This document shows positions 6,992 through 37,132 of a stretch of DNA of 64,000 nt, in pieces. The notes below the pieces were generated by a model. That model worked only from the letters and a program-made list of their open reading frames with translations. It made no database searches and was not told where the DNA came from. This DNA is from an uncultured Porphyrobacter sp. (GTDB lineage Bacteria; Pseudomonadota; Alphaproteobacteria; Sphingomonadales; Sphingomonadaceae). The DNA lies in assembly GCA_964550495.1 (NCBI GenBank), contig CAZJZO010000001.1, positions 6,925 through 70,924 on the forward strand, written 5' to 3'. Numbering within the stretch: the stretch's first letter is position 1; each line of letters starts with the position of its first letter. A program made the position numbers and the translations under genes.

Positions 6992-7542
6992 GTCATCTCC
7001 GCCCATTCCTCCGCAGTGAAGCGCGGGGAGATGTGCTGCGGACAATTCCAGTCGAACCCGACCACATCGATAACAAAGAAGCGCTGAACCTGGGCTTCGT
7101 AGTCCGGATCGACCAGCTCGTTCCACAATTCATGATCGGGGCTTGCGGCCTCCCAACGCGCGGTGCCAATGATCTTGAGGCGTTTGCGGTGCGGATAATC
7201 CATCAGGAACAGCGAGACACGTCCGACATCGTCGATGTTGGCGGCGCTGACAAACTGCCGGTTGCCACCGAAATCGGCGAAGCCCAGTCGGTTGCCGGGG
7301 AGCGGCTTGAGAAATCCCTTGGGACCGCCGCGATGTTGTACGTATGGCCACCCATCCTCGGTCACGCTGGCGATGTAGAAGCTGTCGCGCTGGGCAATGA
7401 AACCGGCTTCGCGGGCCGAGAGTTGATCGTCACCCTCTTCGCCGCGTTCGATCATCTTGGCATAGGCGTCACGCGATCCGTCCGCCTCCTGCAATTCGAA
7501 CGCTCTCTTGCCAAACAATTGGCGCATGAAGTTCGCCGCCAT
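6976..7542 (-). CDS. Pyridoxamine 5'-phosphate oxidase-like FMN-binding protein
   Basis: Motifs FYIASVTEDGWPYVQHRGGPKGFL, LGFADFGGNRQF and FDWNCPQHI. Confidence 0.85.
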   Translation of the reverse strand: MAANFMRQLFGKRAFELQEADGSRDAYAKMIERGEEGDDQLSAREAGFIAQRDSFYIASVTEDGWPYVQHRGGPKGFLKPLPGNRLGFADFGGNRQFVSAANIDDVGRVSLFLMDYPHRKRLKIIGTARWEAASPDHELWNELVDPDYEAQVQRFFVIDVVGFDWNCPQHISPRFTAEEWAEMTAESE

Positions 7543-7664
7543 GATATCGCTCCTTTGCTAAGCCTTGGGACAGACGGGATGTGGCGCGCGAAACGTGGAT
7601 CGCCACTGAGGGTTGCTTGTCGGTGACAAAGCGCAATTTGGATCGCTTAGCCGAACCATCGCAG

Positions 7665-30891: not shown

Positions 30892-31386
30892 TCAAGTCGC
30901 CAATTCACGAAACTCCGCATAGCGCTTGAACGGCACCCAGTCCTGGTCTTCACCGCGTCGGCGCAGGCGAAGCTGATGCATCACAGCTCCAACAAGCACG
31001 AGGATCAGAACCAAGGTTGTGGGAACGTTATTCAGCAACGAATATGAGAAACCGATAATATCGGTAACTCCGCGCGCGAAATGCCCAAGCACGCTGATCA
31101 ATTGCAGCGACGCAGCGAATAGCGGCCACAATCGACGCGCATTGAGCGCAATCGTGAAAAATGCGGCAAATGCAAGTGTGTCGGAAGTCAGCAAAACCAA
31201 GTCGACCGAATCAAAAACCGGATCGACAACAGTGCCGTAAGGCAACGCCTGAACAATCAGCATACCCGTAAAGGCGGCGACGCCCCATCGCTCTGGCGCG
31301 CCGCCAAACCATGCCGCTAACGGTAACCCAACAAAGAACACCACGTAAAACAGGGCGATCCCTGGATTGCTGAAGTCAGGCAACAC
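30892..31386 (-). CDS. Hypothetical multi-pass membrane protein (GGxPER type)
   Basis: 164 aa with about 5 TM segments; WFGGAPER after TM1 and RLWP motif. Confidence 0.7.
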   Translation of the reverse strand: MLPDFSNPGIALFYVVFFVGLPLAAWFGGAPERWGVAAFTGMLIVQALPYGTVVDPVFDSVDLVLLTSDTLAFAAFFTIALNARRLWPLFAASLQLISVLGHFARGVTDIIGFSYSLLNNVPTTLVLILVLVGAVMHQLRLRRRGEDQDWVPFKRYAEFRELAT

Positions 31387-31392
31387 GGCCGC

Positions 31393-31722
31393 TTAACCTT
31401 CGACCAACCTAAGATGAGGCGTGGTTTTGACCTCGGCAATATCTGGGCACTCCCAAGGCAACCCTGCTTTCTCCGCTTCCTTTTCGGCCGCAGAATGCGC
31501 CAGCGAGAGCGCGCCGCGTGCTTCGGTCAGGCTCAAGATAGTTGCAGTCAGGTGCTTGATCGTCCGTTGCGATTCGATGCCCGTCATGCCCGTTTCGGTC
31601 CGCAGCGTAACGGCTGCCTGAAGCTGATAGGAAAGATCCGCCAGCAGCTGATCGGTCTGATCGGTCATGGAATGGAAATTGTCGCTGATCTCTTGGACAA
31701 TATCTTCGGTAGTTGTGGTCAT
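31393..31722 (-). CDS. Small helical hypothetical protein
   Basis: 109 aa from MTTTTEDIVQE; ends 6 nt before the next gene; C-terminus GLPWECPDIAEVKTTPHLRLVEG. Confidence 0.65.
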   Translation of the reverse strand: MTTTTEDIVQEISDNFHSMTDQTDQLLADLSYQLQAAVTLRTETGMTGIESQRTIKHLTATILSLTEARGALSLAHSAAEKEAEKAGLPWECPDIAEVKTTPHLRLVEG

Positions 31723-31753
31723 TATTCTTAGTCCTCGACAAAAGTGACGAGGG

Positions 31754-32320
31754 CTAATTTGCGACCATCGTATCCAACGCGTTGGCAAGGCCAATTGCGC
31801 TCCCCGCTAGGATGATCATGAATGCCGCCCCGGCCGGAATAGCCCATGCGCGCCATCCTCGACCAAATTTGGCATCCCAAGCCCTCGGGCCTGTCGATCT
31901 AAGGTCATCGAGAAACTGTTCGAACTCGGGCGAGCTACGAAGCTGCTGAGCGACCATGACCGGCAGTGCCTGCAGGGTTTGTTCCACGAGGTCTTCGGTC
32001 ACATCTAGGGGGAGGAACCCTGAATTCCGGGTTCCTGTTATGGTTCGCAGGACGATAAACTTCTTGATCGCTTGGTCGCGCGAGGTCGCCCCAAGGCAGC
32101 GCTTCGCCTTGCGCAGATGCTTCTCTACCGAGTTGGTGGTCAGGTCAATTTCGTGCGCAATCAACTCGTTCTTCTTGCCTTCAGCCGCATGCTCGAGGAC
32201 TTCGGTCTGACGCTCGGTCAGCTGGCCGAGCGCAATCTCTGCGCGCTCGCGCCAAACCCCCATCGCATCAAAATCGAGTTGTTTTATGTGTTCACCCACA
32301 TAGCGTGAATAGCGGATCAT
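31754..32320 (-). CDS. LuxR-type HTH protein with C-terminal transmembrane segment
   Basis: LTERQTEVLEHAAEGKKNELIAHEIDLTTNSVEKHLRKAKRCLGA is a LuxR HTH; the C-terminus is hydrophobic (WAIPAGAAFMIILAGSAIGL). Start uncertain. Confidence 0.75.
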   Translation of the reverse strand: MIRYSRYVGEHIKQLDFDAMGVWRERAEIALGQLTERQTEVLEHAAEGKKNELIAHEIDLTTNSVEKHLRKAKRCLGATSRDQAIKKFIVLRTITGTRNSGFLPLDVTEDLVEQTLQALPVMVAQQLRSSPEFEQFLDDLRSTGPRAWDAKFGRGWRAWAIPAGAAFMIILAGSAIGLANALDTMVAN

Positions 32321-32451
32321 GCGCCGACAGCAAAGTTCGAAGTGCCGCACCCCTGCGCCAGGCGTGCCGCTACGGGATTCAACGGTATCGTGAATTGGGC
32401 ACGAATCCCGGCGCTCCTTCGGTTGGAATCGGAAGGATCGGGAGATTCAGT

Positions 32452-32525
32452 TGGAGCGGGTGAAGGGAATCGAACCCTCGTCTTAAGCTTGGGAAGCTCC
32501 TGCTCTACCATTGAGCTACACCCGC
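32452..32525 (-). tRNA. tRNA-Gly (CCC)
   Basis: Reverse complement reads GCGGGTGTAGCTCAATGGTAGAGCAGGAGCTTCCCAAGCTTAAGACGAGGGTTCGATTCCCTTCACCCGCTCCA: cloverleaf, anticodon CCC, encoded CCA. Confidence 0.97.
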
Positions 32526-32846
32526 ATGCCACGAAGCCGCGCGATTGCATCAAGTTGCTCGGCCGGTCAACTCGTTGGGGATGCAGGATCGATAGCATGG
32601 GAGAACTTTATGGTGTGGCTTTCCACCCCAACCGGTCCTCTGCCTGTTATCGTCGAAGCGCCCTTCGCAAAACCAATTCATGAGGCCCGATTCAGATACA
32701 ACTCACTATTGTAGATTTGTTCACCAACACTCGATGGCTTTCGAACACAAAAAGAGTGTCACACAATTTGCGTCGGCAAGCCCTGTACTTCGCTCAACTT
32801 GTAGAAATATGATGCTGTTGTGCTATAGGAGTGTCAGGGAGGGGAT

Positions 32847-33113
32847 ATGGCTCTGTCCAAAATCGATCTCGCGCCTTTGCCCAATTCGGGGACGTCGAGG
32901 GCTGTCCTGGCGACTCATTTGGCGGCGGAAATTGCTCAGCACGGCCTTCCCGCTGTGAAAGCGAGTTTGCTTGCAGGAATGACAGGCGTCGCCGCCGACG
33001 CGCCACCTTCCGAGAGAGTCCGCCTGCACCGGCTATATGCGGGAGCATACACCAACGAGGAATTGGAGGGACTGATCGACAACACGCTGACCAGTCTGGG
33101 GCTCGGAGGCTAG
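32847..33113 (+). CDS. Hypothetical protein (gene 1 of PLD operon)
   Basis: 88 aa; GGGAGGGG SD before ATG; 4-nt gap to the next ORF. Confidence 0.6.
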   Translation: MALSKIDLAPLPNSGTSRAVLATHLAAEIAQHGLPAVKASLLAGMTGVAADAPPSERVRLHRLYAGAYTNEELEGLIDNTLTSLGLGG

Positions 33114-33117
33114 CGCG

Positions 33118-33402
33118 ATGTCGTACAATCTCGGCGAATGGTGGAAGCAGCTAACATGCGACATGTGCCCCAAGACGCCGCCACCGCCGCCGGATCTGGG
33201 TTTGCCGCCCGACTATCACGATCCGTCCTGGGACGATCAGGATCCGTACGGCCTGACGGATCCCTCTCCCTATCCCGAAGATGATGATGACGGCGTTCCC
33301 GAGGAAGACGGTCTTCCCGGCATTCCGATTCCGGGAGGCGGGAGCGCAAGCCCCACCTGGAATGGTGGCCCGGGCTTCAGGCTGACATGGCCATGGGGAT
33401 GA
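33118..33402 (+). CDS. Pro/Asp-rich hypothetical protein with CxxC (gene 2)
   Basis: 94 aa; GGAGG upstream; CDMC, poly-Pro, acidic middle and aromatic C-terminus; stop overlaps the next ATG (ATGA). Confidence 0.55.
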   Translation: MSYNLGEWWKQLTCDMCPKTPPPPPDLGLPPDYHDPSWDDQDPYGLTDPSPYPEDDDDGVPEEDGLPGIPIPGGGSASPTWNGGPGFRLTWPWG

Positions 33403-33677
33403 CCAAAGCAGAAGCAATCCAACGGTATCGAGCCGTCATCAAGCTCAGGCAGCTTTACCAGGCCCATATGGCAACCGAACATGGCAATGCGATATTGGCA
33501 TTGCGGCTGGAAGGACAGGTTGCCGCTGACGATGAACTCGATCCGTCTGACAAGACGCAACGACTGCAAGAATTGGCGCGGCTGCGCAGCCTCACGAAGG
33601 AGCGGTTCCTCGCATTTGCAGAACGGACGGGGCAACTCGACCAACGGGTCTCGGAACTGGCGGAGTGGACCGAATGA
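33399..33677 (+). CDS. Coiled-coil-like hypothetical protein (gene 3)
   Basis: 92 aa with a charged helical pattern; ATGA overlaps at both ends. Confidence 0.6.
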   Translation: MTKAEAIQRYRAVIKLRQLYQAHMATEHGNAILALRLEGQVAADDELDPSDKTQRLQELARLRSLTKERFLAFAERTGQLDQRVSELAEWTE

Positions 33678-34195
33678 ACCTGCCCTTCTCCAGCACCGGG
33701 CTCGCACGCATTGACGATCGAGCTTACTTCGATTTTTGCCTGGCTGCTGCCGAGCGCAGCCAGAGACGGATCTGGGTTTCGCTGTTTATTTGCGACATCC
33801 GCCCCGAGCGCGACGTTGACGGCCAGGTGCTGGAGCTCCTTTCCGCGCTGGTCGATCGACGGTCATGGGGCGTGGATGTCCGCGTGCTGCTGACCGGCGA
33901 TGCCAATGCTGCAGACATCGCTTCGGCAAATTTCGCTTCCGGATATTTTCTCGATCAGTCGGGCGTCCCGCTGCGGCGAATCGTTCGTGTAGACGGGGAA
34001 AGGCTTGGCACCCATTCGAAATTCGCGGTTTTTGACGACGTAGCTGTCGTCGGTAGCCAGAACTGGACCGATGACGGTTTTCGTTTGAACATCGAAGATG
34101 CCGTCCTGCTTGCCGGGTCGGGCACGGACCGCATCGGCAGCGAGTTTCTCAGGCTTTGGCAACACGGAAGGGGAATGCCTCGTGCCGCTGACTGA
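33674..34195 (+). CDS. Phospholipase D superfamily protein, single HKD (gene 4)
   Basis: HSKFAVFD (HxKxxxxD, 34013-34036) followed by GSQNW; RGVDVRVL-like strand (WGVDVRVLL). Confidence 0.85.
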   Translation: MNLPFSSTGLARIDDRAYFDFCLAAAERSQRRIWVSLFICDIRPERDVDGQVLELLSALVDRRSWGVDVRVLLTGDANAADIASANFASGYFLDQSGVPLRRIVRVDGERLGTHSKFAVFDDVAVVGSQNWTDDGFRLNIEDAVLLAGSGTDRIGSEFLRLWQHGRGMPRAAD

Positions 34196-35465
34196 AACCG
34201 CGGCGACAATAGTCGTTCAGCGCTGGGAACAAGATTCCGGCAGCGGCTTCTCGGCTGCAGAACGCACGGCGCTTGCGCAAGCTCTTGTGCGCCTGTCGAG
34301 CGCGGTTGTTTCCGACATGGTTGACGATGTCCCGCTCACGCAGGACCAGAAGACCACATTTTTGGCCGGGCGTACGGAATCCTATCTCAACGACTGGATC
34401 GGGCGGATTGCACGGCAATCCCTGCGCGGTCTCGGCGATAGCTTCGACACCCAAGATCTTGACGATCCGGCTTCGGCCATCGGCCTGCGCAGCGCCGATC
34501 ATCAGGAATTGGTCGATCTTCCCGTCCTCGGTGACGCACTGGCACGCAAGGTCGATCGGTACCTGGCCAACAATCCCAACGCCGAAATGTCCGATCTGAG
34601 CGAAATCTCGGGCATCAGCGATGCCGGCGTCCAAACTCTGCGCGAGGTCGCGTATCTCGACCGGCCGAATACCGTTCTCGTATCGCCCAGCCTGATGAGC
34701 TTTGCGCGTTCGCCGTCGGTTGCCTCGATCATTGCGGTGTTCGAGAACAGCGATCTCGCCTTTGTGTATGGCGACCTGAGGACAGCCGAGCGGCGCCTCG
34801 AAGCCGGCTTGCCATCGACGGTTGCCGGCCGCCTGATCGACTTGATCGAAAGGGTCGCCAGGTTCGCCGAATCCGTCAGGTTTCCCGCCAACGGCGCGCT
34901 GGCGAGCGAAGCTCTTGCCTGGTTGAAGCGACAGGACCAGTATCGCGACACGCTTGGCACGGCGCAGTCGGGCGACGGAAGCATCCTGATCAACGGCTCC
35001 TATGTCGAGGCGGCCAAGGCCTTGATCGAGAGCGCGCAAACCAAGGTTTCGCTGATGGTGTTTCTTGGCACCACGTCTTCGTCGATCGATGGAAATCCCG
35101 CTCCGGCGAGCCTGATCGACGCGCTGCTGCAAACGCCGCCGGGCTGCACTGTCCGGGTAATCCTCGACCGCGACGATGTCGGGGATCCCTACAAGAGCAG
35201 ACTGATCAATCGCGCGCTTTTCGATCGTCTCAAGCAGGGCGGCGTCGAGGTCAAACTGGACGAGGCCGACGAATTGCTACACTCCAAGGTGTTGATCGTC
35301 GACGACGCAAGTGCAATCGTCGGCAGCCACAACTGGACGCGAAGCGGATTCAACTCCACGCATGAATTGAGCGTTCTGGCTCACCAACCCAACCTCGCAC
35401 AGGCCTATCAAAAGCGCTTCGACGCCTTGTGGGCCCGCTTGCCCGATACCCCGCCATCGCAATAG
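34182..35465 (+). CDS. Helix-hairpin-helix plus PLD-like nuclease domain protein (gene 5)
   Basis: GTG 34182 after GGAAGGGGA. ComEA-like HhH pattern (IGLRSADHQELVDLPVLGDALARKV...DLSEISGISDAGVQTL); C-terminal HSKVLIVD plus GSHNW. Confidence 0.8.
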   Translation: MPLTETAATIVVQRWEQDSGSGFSAAERTALAQALVRLSSAVVSDMVDDVPLTQDQKTTFLAGRTESYLNDWIGRIARQSLRGLGDSFDTQDLDDPASAIGLRSADHQELVDLPVLGDALARKVDRYLANNPNAEMSDLSEISGISDAGVQTLREVAYLDRPNTVLVSPSLMSFARSPSVASIIAVFENSDLAFVYGDLRTAERRLEAGLPSTVAGRLIDLIERVARFAESVRFPANGALASEALAWLKRQDQYRDTLGTAQSGDGSILINGSYVEAAKALIESAQTKVSLMVFLGTTSSSIDGNPAPASLIDALLQTPPGCTVRVILDRDDVGDPYKSRLINRALFDRLKQGGVEVKLDEADELLHSKVLIVDDASAIVGSHNWTRSGFNSTHELSVLAHQPNLAQAYQKRFDALWARLPDTPPSQ

Positions 35466-35635: not shown

Positions 35636-37132
35636 ATGCGGCAAGTCGATCATTTCCTGGTTGGTGGCTCTGGCGGTCCGCCTGCCCGCACGCACCAGAT
35701 CTGGAATCCTTCGACCGGCGAAGTGCAGGCCGAGGTCGGGCTGGGCGACGCAGCCCTGCTTGAACAGGCTGTTGCGACCGCCAAACAGGTGCAGCCGGCA
35801 TGGGCGGCGACCAATCCGCAGAAGCGGGCGCGGGTCATGTTCCGCTTCAAGGAACTGGTCGAAGCCAACATGCAGAGCCTCGCCGAACTGCTTTCGAGCG
35901 AGCACGGCAAGGTAATCGATGACGCCAAGGGCGATGTCCAGCGCGGGCTGGAAGTGATCGAATATGCCTGCGGCATCCCGCAAGTGCTGAAAGGCGAGTA
36001 CACCCAAGGCGCTGGCCCCGGGATCGATGTCTATTCAACCCGCCAGCCGCTTGGCATCGGTGCCGGGATCACACCGTTCAACTTCCCGGCCATGATCCCG
36101 ATGTGGATGTTCGGGATGGCGATCGCCGCGGGCAATGCCTTTATCCTCAAGCCGGCCGAGCGCGATCCGAGCGTGCCGGTTCGGCTCGCGGAACTCTTCA
36201 TTGAAGCGGGTGCTCCCGAAGGATTGCTGCAGGTCATCCATGGCGACAAGGAGATGGTCGACGCGATCCTCGACCACCCGGCGATTGCGGCGGTCAGCTT
36301 CGTCGGTTCGTCCGACATCGCCCACTATGTCTACCGCCGCGGAGCCGAGGCCGGAAAGCGCGTGCAGGCCATGGGCGGAGCGAAAAATCACGGCATCGTG
36401 ATGCCCGATGCAGATCTCGATCAGGTCGTGAACGATCTCGCCGGCGCCGCGTTCGGTTCGGCGGGCGAGCGCTGCATGGCCCTGCCGGTGGTGGTGCCGG
36501 TGGGCGAAGACACGGCCGAACGACTGAAGGAAAAGCTGATCCCGGCGATCAACGCTTTGCGCATCGGCGTCTCGACCGATCCCGACGCGCATTACGGACC
36601 GGTTGTCACACCCGAGCACAAGGCAAGGGTCGAAGGCTGGATCGACACCGCCGAGCAGGAAGGCGCGGAGATCGTTGTCGATGGACGCGGCTACACACTT
36701 CAGGGGCACGAAGACGGCTTCTTTGTCGGGCCGACCCTGATCGACCGCGTGACGCCGACCATGTCGAGCTATCAGGAAGAGATCTTCGGCCCGGTCCTGC
36801 AGATGGTCCGCGCAACCCACTTTGAAGACGCAGTGCGGCTGCCGAGCGAGCACCAGTATGGCAATGGTGTCGCGATCTTCACCCGCAACGGCCATGCCGC
36901 TCGCGAGTTCGCCAGCCGAGTCAATGTCGGCATGGTCGGGATCAATGTTCCGATCCCGGTTCCGGTCGCGTACCATTCCTTTGGCGGTTGGAAGCGATCG
37001 GGTTTTGGCGACATCGACCAATATGGCACCGAAGGCCTGCGATTCTGGACCAAGACCAAGAAAGTCACCCAGCGCTGGCCCGATGGCGGTGGCGACGGCT
37101 CCAACGCTTTCGTGATTCCGACCTTCGGATAG
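35636..37132 (+). CDS. mmsA: CoA-acylating methylmalonate-semialdehyde dehydrogenase
   Basis: ITPFNFPAMIPMW, FVGS, MGGAKNH, AGERCMA and EEIFGPV motifs. Confidence 0.94.
   Translation: MRQVDHFLVGGSGGPPARTHQIWNPSTGEVQAEVGLGDAALLEQAVATAKQVQPAWAATNPQKRARVMFRFKELVEANMQSLAELLSSEHGKVIDDAKGDVQRGLEVIEYACGIPQVLKGEYTQGAGPGIDVYSTRQPLGIGAGITPFNFPAMIPMWMFGMAIAAGNAFILKPAERDPSVPVRLAELFIEAGAPEGLLQVIHGDKEMVDAILDHPAIAAVSFVGSSDIAHYVYRRGAEAGKRVQAMGGAKNHGIVMPDADLDQVVNDLAGAAFGSAGERCMALPVVVPVGEDTAERLKEKLIPAINALRIGVSTDPDAHYGPVVTPEHKARVEGWIDTAEQEGAEIVVDGRGYTLQGHEDGFFVGPTLIDRVTPTMSSYQEEIFGPVLQMVRATHFEDAVRLPSEHQYGNGVAIFTRNGHAAREFASRVNVGMVGINVPIPVPVAYHSFGGWKRSGFGDIDQYGTEGLRFWTKTKKVTQRWPDGGGDGSNAFVIPTFG

What the first reader, a model, noticed from the sequence alone, without database searches (positions are those of the whole stretch)
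32847..35465. Five-gene tRNA-adjacent operon with two single-HKD PLD proteins, one fused to a helix-hairpin-helix domain: candidate undescribed nuclease or defence system
Seen in sequence: five co-oriented ORFs (88, 94, 92, 173 and 427 aa) joined by a 4-nt gap, two ATGA overlaps and a 14-nt overlap. They sit between tRNA-Gly and mmsA, behind a relatively AT-rich 320-nt leader. Genes 4 and 5 each carry exactly one HxKxxxxD plus GSxNW. Gene 5 also has a ComEA-like HhH segment (about 34480-34650). No signal peptide is evident in either. Established: PLD-superfamily active sites need two HKD halves; single-HKD members (Nuc, BfiI, Zucchini, DISARM DrmC) dimerise and are nucleases; HhH binds DNA without sequence specificity; tRNA flanks are common accessory-DNA sites. 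Inference: the two PLDs may form a heterodimeric cytoplasmic nuclease controlled by the three small proteins, as an anti-phage/anti-plasmid or toxin module. I do not recognise this architecture as a named system.
Basis: partly seen in the sequence, partly recalled or inferred. Interest (0 to 1): 0.85.

Follow-up and report, generated by a model that had tools for sequence, protein, structure and literature searches.

The report
Mobile five-gene split-PLD nuclease cassette
A rare, horizontally moving five-gene operon encodes two half-enzymes of the phospholipase-D nuclease type (one with a DNA-binding domain) plus three small proteins unlike anything catalogued. It is probably an undescribed nuclease-based defence or addiction module, but no function has been tested.

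Summary
Five co-oriented, overlapping genes lie at 32847-35465. Genes 4 and 5 each carry one HxKxxxxD plus GSxNW motif, and gene 5 carries a ComEA-like (HhH)2 domain.

The same five genes, in the same order, recur in about 20 distinct loci. The named loci span five phyla, and each locus has unrelated flanks.

Only about 34 protein clusters of gene 5 exist among 5.8 billion. Full-length copies occur in 10 of 185,579 species genomes.

A close Erythrobacteraceae relative has tRNA-Gly directly abutting mmsA, an empty site. Another relative has unrelated genes there. The cassette is therefore accessory.

Other copies sit in these contexts:
- in a tRNA-Met island with AbiEii, ParE/RelB and RES-Xre;
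- beside PD-Lambda-1;
- on a RepA/resolvase plasmid-like contig.

The PLD domains resemble the nucleases Nuc, Zucchini and NucT, not lipid enzymes. Genes 1-3 match no Pfam, PADLOC, NCBIfam, PHROG or PDB family. Gene 2 is a disordered polyanion with net charge -14 to -29.

No named defence system fits. My best reading is a split two-subunit HKD DNA nuclease held in check by small proteins, acting as a defence or addiction module. The heterodimer, the DNA target and the biological role are all inferred.

The parts
32452..32525 (-). tRNA-Gly(CCC). This is the left landmark of the insertion site; the cassette lies on its 5' side.
   Evidence: ARAGORN and Rfam tRNA at 68.5 bits. An identical or 96%-identical tRNA is present in relatives L098 and L099.
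32526..32846 (+). 321-nt leader with lower GC (50%). It presumably holds the promoter. No known RNA family matches it.
   Evidence: Composition. Rfam found only the tRNA. The sigma-70 scan found no plus-strand match.
32847..33113 (+). g1, 88 aa, an orphan small protein. Conserved motifs are IxLxPIP at the N-terminus and PSExxRLRLLYxxVYTxxEL.
   Evidence: ORF. Conserved in 11 loci at 27-40% identity. No hit in Pfam, PADLOC, NCBIfam, PHROG or PDB.
33118..33402 (+). g2, 94 aa, an orphan proline- and aromatic-rich polyanion. Net charge is -14 here and -16 to -29 in orthologues. The N-terminus (MSYxxLG...CExC) and C-terminus (PGGG..P.W..GPG..WPWG) are conserved. It is a candidate DNA-mimic or inhibitor.
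   Evidence: No database hit.
33399..33677 (+). g3, 92 aa, an orphan small protein that is basic in most orthologues. Conserved motif: MTxDEA...KLxRLYxAYRA. It overlaps the g2 stop and the g4 start by ATGA.
   Evidence: Only 5 representatives among 1.84 billion. No Pfam or PDB hit.
33674..34195 (+). g4, 173 aa, the small single-HKD PLD subunit (Nuc-like). H114-x-K-x4-D lies at nt 34013-34036 and GSQNW at nt 34052-34066.
   Evidence: PLDc_2 E 3e-13. Motifs. The motifs are intact in all 11 orthologues listed.
34182..35465 (+). g5, 427 aa, the large PLD subunit. Domains: N-terminal three-helix domain (aa 1-82), (HhH)2 (aa 107-156, nt 34500-34649), helical middle domain (aa 169-261) and Nuc-like HKD domain (aa 266-419, nt 34977-35438). 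H367-x-K-x4-D lies at nt 35280-35303 and GSHNW at nt 35322-35336.
   Evidence: AlphaFold models with pLDDT 88 and 90.6. Foldseek matches Nuc 1byr at TM 0.80 and ComEA at rmsd 1.6-1.7 A. Motifs.

Best explanation
The locus is a self-contained, horizontally transferred five-gene operon built around a split HKD (phospholipase-D superfamily) DNA nuclease.

Proposed assembly (inferred). g4 is a bare Nuc-like half. g5 is a second Nuc-like half preceded by a ComEA-type (HhH)2 dsDNA-binding domain and two novel helical domains. I propose that g4 and g5 form a heterodimer whose single active site is made from His114 (g4) and His367 (g5). The HhH domain would tether the enzyme to DNA without sequence specificity.

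Proposed control (inferred). The three orphan small proteins are non-enzymatic regulators. g2 is a disordered polyanion rich in aromatic residues. It most plausibly acts as a DNA-mimicking pseudo-substrate or antitoxin that keeps the nuclease silent. g1 and g3 act as a pair, as adaptor, sensor or chaperone; they are fused in one lineage.

Proposed role (inferred). A trigger such as a phage, a plasmid or loss of the module would relieve inhibition, and DNA would then be degraded. That would give defence, abortive infection or addiction. An optional adjacent SNase-type nuclease in some loci would assist degradation.

Shown: domain identities, motif integrity, strict five-gene co-occurrence, rarity, accessory status and cytoplasmic character. 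Inferred: heterodimer formation, DNA as substrate, the roles of g1-g3 and the biological function.
For: 1. The five-gene order and gene sizes are conserved in about 20 distinct loci, all with different flanks. Every locus with a g2 hit (and every complete locus with a g1 hit) also has g3, g4 and g5.
2. Both HKD halves are intact in all orthologues. The g4/g5 and g3/g4 overlaps are conserved across phyla, which fits stoichiometric co-translation.
3. The closest relatives are nucleases. By profile: Zucchini/MitoPLD 3e-14 and Nuc 6e-11. By fold: Nuc at TM 0.80, then NucT and Zucchini. The HhH domain matches ComEA.
4. Distant cyanobacterial relatives carry two HKD motifs plus a C-terminal HhH in one chain. 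All eight more distant HhH-PLD genes with readable upstream DNA are preceded by a small g4-like PLD gene.
5. An SNase-like gene directly adjoins the cassette in 4 loci.
6. The cassette is accessory. An empty tRNA-Gly/mmsA junction is present in L099, and different cargo in L098. Full-length g5 occurs in 10 of 185,579 species genomes, from 5 named phyla.
7. Conflict-type contexts occur. These are a tRNA-Met island with AbiEii, ParE/RelB and RES-Xre; PD-Lambda-1 at E 1e-114 next door; a RepA_C plus resolvase plasmid-like contig; and an eCIS_core/DddA-like toxin nearby.
8. g2 has a net charge of -14 to -29 with 11-16 aromatic residues. g1 and g3 are fused in L011.
9. No transmembrane segment or signal peptide is present.
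Against: - No complex model, biochemical test or phage or plasmid assay was possible, so heterodimer formation and the roles of the small proteins are untested.
- g5 itself is acidic (pI about 4.8). That does not obviously fit inhibition by a polyanion and is unusual for a non-specific DNA binder.
- Most loci sit among housekeeping genes. Only about 4-5 of roughly 20 have defence, TA or toxin neighbours, and no formal enrichment test was done.
- The cassette is absent from the phage, plasmid and IMG/VR collections searched.
- g2 is missing in one lineage (L011). In a divergent Bacteroidales version it is replaced by a basic Cys-rich ORF. A universal polyanion-inhibitor role is therefore not secure.
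Confidence: 0.5

Rival explanations
1. The cassette is a toxin-antitoxin or addiction module rather than an immune system. The g4/g5 nuclease would be the toxin. One or more of g1-g3 would be labile antitoxins, possibly with a chaperone as in tripartite TAC systems. The cassette would persist by post-segregational killing on plasmids and islands.
For: One copy lies on a 9.8-kb contig with RepA_C and a resolvase. Another lies between ParE/RelB and RES-Xre pairs. The genes are small, tightly overlapping and upstream of the enzyme. g2 is disordered and acidic like many antitoxin or immunity proteins.
Against: Five genes with three conserved small partners is far more complex than known TA modules. 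The cassette is absent from 72,556 PLSDB plasmids. Most copies are chromosomal among housekeeping genes. This rival overlaps heavily with the best explanation, since many TA systems are defence systems.
Confidence: 0.2
2. The cassette is an accessory or effector module of interbacterial competition (polymorphic toxin / RHS context). The PLD pair would be delivered to, or would act with, an RHS-type toxin, and the small proteins would serve as chaperones or immunity factors.
For: In two distant PLD-pair loci (L022 Ideonella, L034 alphaproteobacterium) the HhH-PLD gene overlaps the start of a 2041-2085-aa RHS/DUF6531 protein. An eCIS_core/DddA-like toxin lies 2.2 kb from the cassette in L010.
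Against: None of the roughly 20 five-gene cassettes has an RHS, VgrG, PAAR or secretion gene adjacent. No signal peptide or known secretion or trafficking domain was detected. The RHS-linked pairs lack g1-g3 homologues.
Confidence: 0.08
3. The cassette is a housekeeping DNA-processing enzyme (repair, competence-related DNA uptake or degradation) rather than a conflict system.
For: The ComEA-like HhH domain and similarity to NucT, both linked to transformation. Many loci are embedded among housekeeping genes. RecJ lies near L014.
Against: The cassette is extremely rare and patchy, in 10 of 185,579 species. It is absent from close relatives at the same site. It has no membrane anchor or signal peptide as in ComEA, Nuc or NucT. 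No competence genes are adjacent.
Confidence: 0.06
4. The cassette encodes a lipid-acting PLD, such as a phospholipase or a cardiolipin or phosphatidylserine-synthase-like enzyme.
For: PLD-superfamily membership. There are weak NCBIfam hits to cardiolipin synthases at 14-19 bits.
Against: Those scores are far below the cut-offs of 281-787 bits. There are no transmembrane segments. The DNA-binding HhH domain and the top sequence and fold matches to nucleases also argue against it.
Confidence: 0.04

Closest known systems
Nuc (pKM101/Salmonella, PDB 1byr) and NucT (Helicobacter pylori): single-HKD PLD-family nucleases
   Same: They share a single HxKx4D + GSxN half-site in a domain of about 150-170 aa. 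Nuc is the best fold match to the g5 catalytic domain (Nuc TM 0.80; NucT 0.71-0.74). The profile E-value to Nuc is 6e-11. From general knowledge, the active site in these enzymes is formed by dimerisation.
   Different: Nuc and NucT are exported homodimers encoded by single genes. Here two different halves are co-encoded, neither has a signal peptide, one carries HhH plus novel helical domains, and three orphan small genes always accompany them. NCBIfam NucT scores are 12-33 bits against cut-offs of 211-351.
Zucchini / MitoPLD (PLD6)
   Same: This is the best profile match among solved structures (3e-14). It is a single-HKD dimeric nuclease.
   Different: It is a eukaryotic, membrane-anchored, piRNA-biogenesis enzyme. 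It has no HhH domain, no partner half and no small accessory proteins.
DISARM DrmC, Dpd DpdK, Mokosh MkoB/MkoC (PLD-domain components of defence systems)
   Same: They have PLD-type nuclease domains used as effector or accessory in anti-phage systems. The weak HMM hits are confined to the HKD domain.
   Different: The hits are far below family thresholds: DrmC 33-38 bits against 133, and DpdK 24 bits against 100. None of the defining partners of those systems (helicases, methyltransferases, 7-deazaguanine genes) is present in the 8 Pfam-annotated loci, nor among the 25 commonest families of the flank scan.
BfiI restriction endonuclease
   Same: It has a PLD-family nuclease domain joined to a DNA-binding domain, with one composite active site per dimer (general knowledge).
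   Different: BfiI is a homodimer with a sequence-specific B3-like domain at the C-terminus. Here the DNA binder is a non-specific (HhH)2 N-terminal to the PLD domain, and the partner half is a separate protein. Pfam RE_NgoFVII scores only E 0.15.
ComEA
   Same: The (HhH)2 dsDNA-binding domain matches by profile (E 5e-9 and 6e-8) and by model (rmsd 1.6-1.7 A).
   Different: ComEA is a membrane-anchored periplasmic DNA receptor without a catalytic domain. TIGR comEA scores 12.8 bits against a cut-off of 152.
Tripartite toxin-antitoxin-chaperone (TAC) and nuclease-immunity pairs (e.g. colicin DNase/Im, NucA/NuiA)
   Same: The concept is shared: a potentially lethal enzyme co-encoded upstream with small, often acidic or disordered neutralising proteins.
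   Different: There is no sequence or fold relationship. Here there are three small proteins and a two-subunit enzyme.

Membership tests
PLD (HKD) superfamily | HxKx4D motif followed by GSxN within a PLDc_2-type fold | tested here: met
   g4 has H114SKFAVFD and GSQNW. g5 has H367SKVLIVD and GSHNW. PLDc_2 E-values are 3e-13 and 6e-21, both above gathering score. The motifs are invariant in 34 g5 and 11 g4 orthologues.
PLD (HKD) superfamily | Two HKD halves brought together in one active site | not testable with these tools
   Each protein has one half. No multimer prediction was available. Indirect support comes from conserved overlap and co-occurrence and from single-chain PLD-PLD-HhH relatives.
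Nuc/NucT nucleases | Sequence membership (NCBIfam NucT equivalogs) | tested here: not met
   Best scores are 33 bits (g5) and 16 bits (g4) against cut-offs of 211-351.
Nuc/NucT nucleases | Nuc-like fold of the catalytic domain | tested here: met
   Foldseek top hit is 1byr, E 2e-9, TM (target) 0.80. NucT 6ehi scores 0.71-0.74.
Nuc/NucT nucleases | Exported protein (signal peptide) | tested here: not met
   No hydrophobic N-terminus is present; the maximum KD19 is at most 1.2 (sequences).
Nuc/NucT nucleases | Nuclease activity on DNA/RNA | not testable with these tools
   This needs a biochemical assay.
DISARM | DrmC equivalog score | tested here: not met
   NF038319 scores 33.1 and 37.7 bits against a cut-off of 133. 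PADLOC DrmC hits cover only the HKD motif region.
DISARM | Co-located DrmA/DrmB helicase-DUF1998 genes and a methyltransferase | tested here: not met
   Neighbours in the window are a GerE regulator, tRNA-Gly and mmsA. No such genes flank any Pfam-annotated cassette locus.
Dpd / Mokosh / Azaca (other PLD-containing defence systems) | Family-level match to DpdK, MkoB/C or ZacB plus their partner genes | tested here: not met
   DpdK NF041068 scores 23.7 bits against 100. PADLOC MkoB, MkoC and ZacB hits are partial, with E from 1e-9 to 1e-2. Partner genes are absent.
Cardiolipin / phosphatidylserine synthases | Two HKD motifs in one chain, membrane association, family-level score | tested here: not met
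   Each protein has one HKD. There is no transmembrane segment. ClsB scores 19 bits against 281, and Cls 14.6 against 787.
ComEA-type HhH DNA-binding domain | (HhH)2 fold | tested here: met
   Profile against 8dss and 2duy gives E 5e-9 and 6e-8. The model superposes at 1.6-1.7 A over 59-64 residues. Orthologues exceed the HHH_3 threshold, e.g. L019 at E 1e-17. The window protein alone is below threshold at 17.4 bits against 27.
Anti-phage defence system (generic) | Accessory, patchy distribution with variable genomic context | tested here: met
Anti-phage defence system (generic) | Statistical enrichment in defence islands | tested here: inconclusive
   Defence or TA neighbours are clear in L088 and L012, with toxin or plasmid contexts in L010 and L100. 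Most other loci are housekeeping. No background model was computed.
Anti-phage defence system (generic) | Protection against phage or plasmid on expression | not testable with these tools
   This needs an experiment.

The most novel reading that the evidence does not exclude
The cassette is a previously unrecognised immune or addiction system. A heterodimeric split-HKD nuclease would be kept latent by a dedicated intrinsically disordered polyanionic DNA or SSB-tail mimic (g2). It would be released by a g1-g3 sensor pair on infection. On this reading the system is the best-conserved branch of a wider, unnamed superfamily of 'small PLD + HhH-PLD' pairs that plug into interchangeable accessory modules: orphan small proteins, SNase, RHS toxins.
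Probability: 0.3. Interest if true: 0.75.

Novelty: new variant of a known kind. Interest (0 to 1): 0.6.

Why it matters
If the reading is right, the cassette adds a new architecture to nuclease-based conflict systems. The enzyme's two catalytic halves are encoded separately and are always accompanied by three protein families with no known relatives.

It would be a natural example of an obligate heterodimeric HKD nuclease. Known single-HKD nucleases are homodimers. It might also reveal a new protein inhibitor or DNA mimic.

The cassette is compact at 2.6 kb. It occurs in two cultured organisms, Arenibacter algicola E3M18 and Paraliomyxa miuraensis SMH-27-4, so it can be tested directly.

Its extreme rarity limits its ecological weight. 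The wider PLD-pair family, including RHS-coupled versions, suggests the core enzyme is a reusable effector module.

Tried and rejected
- Named defence systems. PADLOC and NCBIfam gave only sub-threshold HKD-motif hits to DrmC, DpdK, MkoB/C and ZacB, and nothing for g1-g3. Rejected.
- Phage origin. PHROGs gave no hit for the small proteins, only unknown-function PLD families. tblastn against 50,697 phage records found no full-length match. The IMG/VR scan found none. Rejected.
- Plasmid-borne element. No full-length match was found in PLSDB. One metagenomic contig does carry RepA_C and a resolvase.
- Fold or sequence identification of g1-g3. PDB profile searches found nothing significant. Pfam scans of all 11 orthologues of each protein found nothing. 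A word-index search with g1 found only close relatives. An exhaustive phmmer search with g3 found 5 representatives, all 92-97 aa.
- g1 and g3 as paralogues, suggested by a shared RLxxLY motif. hhalign probability was 0.8%. Rejected.
- Homology between g1/g3 and the small proteins preceding distant PLD pairs. None was detected. The L019 proteins only look similar by eye.
- Novel helical domains of g5. Foldseek on the N-terminal 262 residues matched only the HhH part.
- Integration scars. No att-like direct repeats flank the cassette. No promoter or terminator signal exceeded the shuffled expectation. No Rfam element lies in the leader.
- A metagenome scan with the full g2 alignment failed because no stretch was conserved enough. 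A subgroup alignment worked but added only 8 loci.
- Literature searches for a PLD + HhH operon found no description.


Full report
**1. The observation**

- g1: 32847-33113, 88 aa.
- g2: 33118-33402, 94 aa.
- g3: 33399-33677, 92 aa.
- g4: 33674-34195, 173 aa.
- g5: 34182-35465, 427 aa, GTG start.

The junctions are a 4-nt gap, two ATGA overlaps and a 14-nt overlap. The g5 start is confirmed by 34 homologues that all begin at the equivalent M-x-L. tRNA-Gly(CCC) lies at 32452-32525 on the minus strand, and mmsA follows at 35636. The leader has 50% GC against 61% for the cassette and the window.

g4 and g5 each contain one HxKx4D and one GSxNW motif, and both pass the Pfam PLDc_2 threshold. The HhH segment (nt 34500-34649) is sub-threshold for the single sequence. 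It is solid at family level: the profile matches ComEA structures at E 5e-9 and 6e-8, and the AlphaFold model superposes on ComEA at 1.6-1.7 A. No protein has a hydrophobic stretch typical of a signal peptide or membrane helix.

**2. It is a conserved five-gene cassette**

A search of 5.8 billion protein clusters returned only 34 full-length g5 relatives, 415-432 aa long and 32-85% identical. Every contig examined carries the same five genes in the same order. Gene sizes are 86-93, 75-107, 90-98, 169-173 and 415-432 aa.

I built profile HMMs of the five proteins and scanned six-frame translations of all fetched loci. They found all five genes in 19 of about 20 distinct loci (L100). L011 lacks g2 and has g1 and g3 in one reading frame. 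A metagenome scan seeded with g2 retrieved only loci that also carry the other four genes, as far as each contig reaches.

The three small proteins are conserved at 26-53% identity across phyla, so they are genuine genes. The overlaps g3/g4 (ATGA) and g4/g5 (4-14 nt) are conserved too.

**3. It is rare, patchy and accessory**

Among one genome for each of 185,579 species, full-length g5 occurs in 10. These are:
- Wenzhouxiangellaceae, Thiocapsa and other Pseudomonadota;
- an Acidobacteriota MAG;
- Paraliomyxa miuraensis and a Myxococcales MAG;
- a Planctomycetota MAG;
- Arenibacter algicola (Bacteroidota).

Flanking genes differ in every locus.

The window's host belongs to the Erythrobacteraceae: its MmsA is 97% identical to that of an Erythrobacter MAG. 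Two relatives show what the site looks like without the cassette:
- In L099 (MmsA 93% identical), tRNA-Gly(CCC) is followed directly by mmsA. This is an empty site. Two integrases lie on the tRNA's 3' side.
- In L098 (MmsA 97% identical), the flanks and the tRNA are conserved, but two unrelated minus-strand genes occupy the gap.

The cassette is therefore a roughly 3-kb insertion in a variable spot. No att repeats were found, and the cassette's GC matches the genome.

Elsewhere the cassette sits in several kinds of context:
- It starts 95 nt after tRNA-Pro in L087.
- It lies in a tRNA-Met-bounded island with AbiEii, ParE/RelB and RES-Xre, plus a g4-like fragment, in L088.
- It lies next to PD-Lambda-1 (E 1e-114) in L012.
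- It lies on a 9.8-kb contig with RepA_C and a resolvase in L100.
- It lies 2.2 kb from an eCIS_core/DddA-like toxin in L010.

Most other loci are surrounded by housekeeping genes. The defence-island signal is therefore suggestive but not demonstrated. The cassette is absent from the phage, PLSDB and IMG/VR collections.

**4. What the proteins are**

The g5 family profile matches several solved structures through the HKD domain:

| Structure | E-value |
|---|---|
| Zucchini/MitoPLD | 3e-14 |
| Nuc | 6e-11 |
| NucT | 5e-6 |
| PLD3/4 exonucleases | 6e-6 to 5e-5 |

Its residues 82-155 match ComEA. The AlphaFold model (pLDDT 88) has Nuc as its top fold match, at TM 0.80. Modelling the N-terminal 262 residues alone (pLDDT 90.6) shows three parts: a three-helix domain, the (HhH)2 domain, and a second helical domain. 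Only the HhH part has any PDB counterpart.

g4 is a bare Nuc-like half. Lipid-enzyme models score far below threshold, as do DrmC, DpdK and NucT equivalogs. PADLOC gives only partial HKD hits.

g1, g2 and g3 have no match in Pfam (all 11 orthologues of each were scanned), PADLOC, NCBIfam or the PDB; PHROGs gave only one non-significant g1 hit (E 0.27). An exhaustive phmmer search with g3 against 1.84 billion representatives found five proteins, all 92-97 aa.

Their properties differ:
- g2 is an extreme polyanion, with net charge -14 to -29 in about 92 residues. It has 11-16 aromatic and 10-20 proline residues, and conserved termini.
- g3 is basic in most orthologues.
- g1 and g3 are not paralogues.

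**5. A wider family**

More distant HhH-PLD genes are also always preceded by a small g4-like PLD gene. This holds in L015/L016 Rhodophyticola, L017 Woeseiaceae, L018, L019 Bacteroidales, L021 Symbiobacterium, L022 Ideonella and L034. Their upstream small genes show no detectable homology to g1-g3.

In L022 and L034 the pair overlaps the start of an RHS/DUF6531 protein of about 2,050 aa. Cyanobacterial relatives carry two HKD motifs plus a C-terminal HhH in one chain. An SNase-like gene directly adjoins the cassette in L012, L100, L019 and L011.

**6. Mechanism**

The best-supported reading is a split, two-subunit HKD nuclease that acts on DNA.

Shown:
- Both halves are catalytically intact.
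- The two genes are always co-encoded and translationally coupled.
- Their nearest relatives are nucleases.
- A dsDNA-binding domain is attached.
- A single-chain equivalent exists in distant relatives.
- SNase is an occasional partner.

Inferred:
- g4 and g5 heterodimerise.
- g2 acts as a DNA-like inhibitor.
- g1 and g3 act together (they are fused in L011) as adaptor or sensor.
- The module serves defence or addiction.

From memory only, the 'FDDF(D/E)(I/V)P' stretch of many g2 orthologues resembles the SSB C-terminal tail. I did not test this.

Two points weigh against the inhibitor idea. g5 is itself acidic (pI about 4.8). g2 is dispensable or replaced in two lineages.

**7. Comparison and novelty**

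The cassette works like Nuc, BfiI or DrmC-type PLD nucleases. It fails the membership tests for each of those families and systems (see the membership table). The five-gene architecture and three of its five protein families are absent from Pfam, PADLOC, NCBIfam, PHROGs and the PDB, and four literature searches found no description. I file it as a new variant of a known kind, namely nuclease-based conflict modules, with function unproven.

**8. Verdict**

Interest is moderate to high for specialists, tempered by extreme rarity and the lack of functional evidence.

Noticed in passing
L022:6338-15078 and L034:7935-16271: Distant 'small PLD + HhH-PLD' pairs lacking g1-g3 are followed by RHS-repeat/DUF6531 proteins of 2085 and 2041 aa, with overlapping stop and start codons. 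This suggests that the PLD pair can be operonic with polymorphic toxins.
   Followed up: partly
L012:9249-9701, L100:6330-6785, L019:9860-10237, L011:69-875: A staphylococcal-nuclease-like gene sits directly next to the cassette in four loci, downstream in three and upstream in one. It may be an optional sixth gene.
   Followed up: partly
L011:952-1611: In a Myxococcales MAG, g1 and g3 lie in one 206-aa reading frame joined by a short acidic linker, and g2 is absent. This is either a natural g1-g3 fusion or an assembly artefact on a 4-kb contig.
   Followed up: partly
L019:7115-9780: A Bacteroidales MAG carries a divergent five-gene version (g5 24% identical). A basic, cysteine-rich 73-aa ORF (7443-7664) occupies the position of acidic g2. 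The flanking small ORFs resemble g1 and g3 only by eye (hmmsearch E 0.3-0.5).
   Followed up: partly
L088:5188-5750: A 106-aa fragment matching the middle of g4 (E 8e-24) lies right after tRNA-Met. This is at the edge of the island that also holds AbiEii, ParE/RelB, the intact cassette and RES-Xre. It may be a remnant of a second cassette.
   Followed up: no
L051:6831-8558, L059:3600-5336, L076:5886-8429, L079:3309-5039: Cyanobacterial proteins combine two HKD motifs with a C-terminal HhH domain in a single chain. This is a fused counterpart of the g4+g5 arrangement.
   Followed up: partly
L099:1-7839 (relative of the window's host): On the 3' side of the same tRNA-Gly, a close relative carries two tyrosine-integrase genes (one with DUF6538) and an RHS-repeat gene. 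The tRNA-Gly region is therefore an integration hot spot in this family.
   Followed up: no
window 30892-32350 (minus strand): Three genes lie upstream of the tRNA: 164 aa, about 109 aa, and a GerE/LuxR-type regulator. The region has lower GC (0.53-0.58). All three are conserved in relative L098, so they are not part of the cassette insertion.
   Followed up: partly
window 33118-33402 and orthologues (alignment A2): Many g2 orthologues contain 'GG(L/P)FDDF(D/E)(I/V)P'. From memory this resembles the acidic C-terminal tail of bacterial SSB. The motif is degenerate in the window's copy.
   Followed up: no
flank set A7 (loci L006-L019, L091, L095 and others): One flanking ORF matches PADLOC MzaA (E 9e-47).
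   Followed up: no
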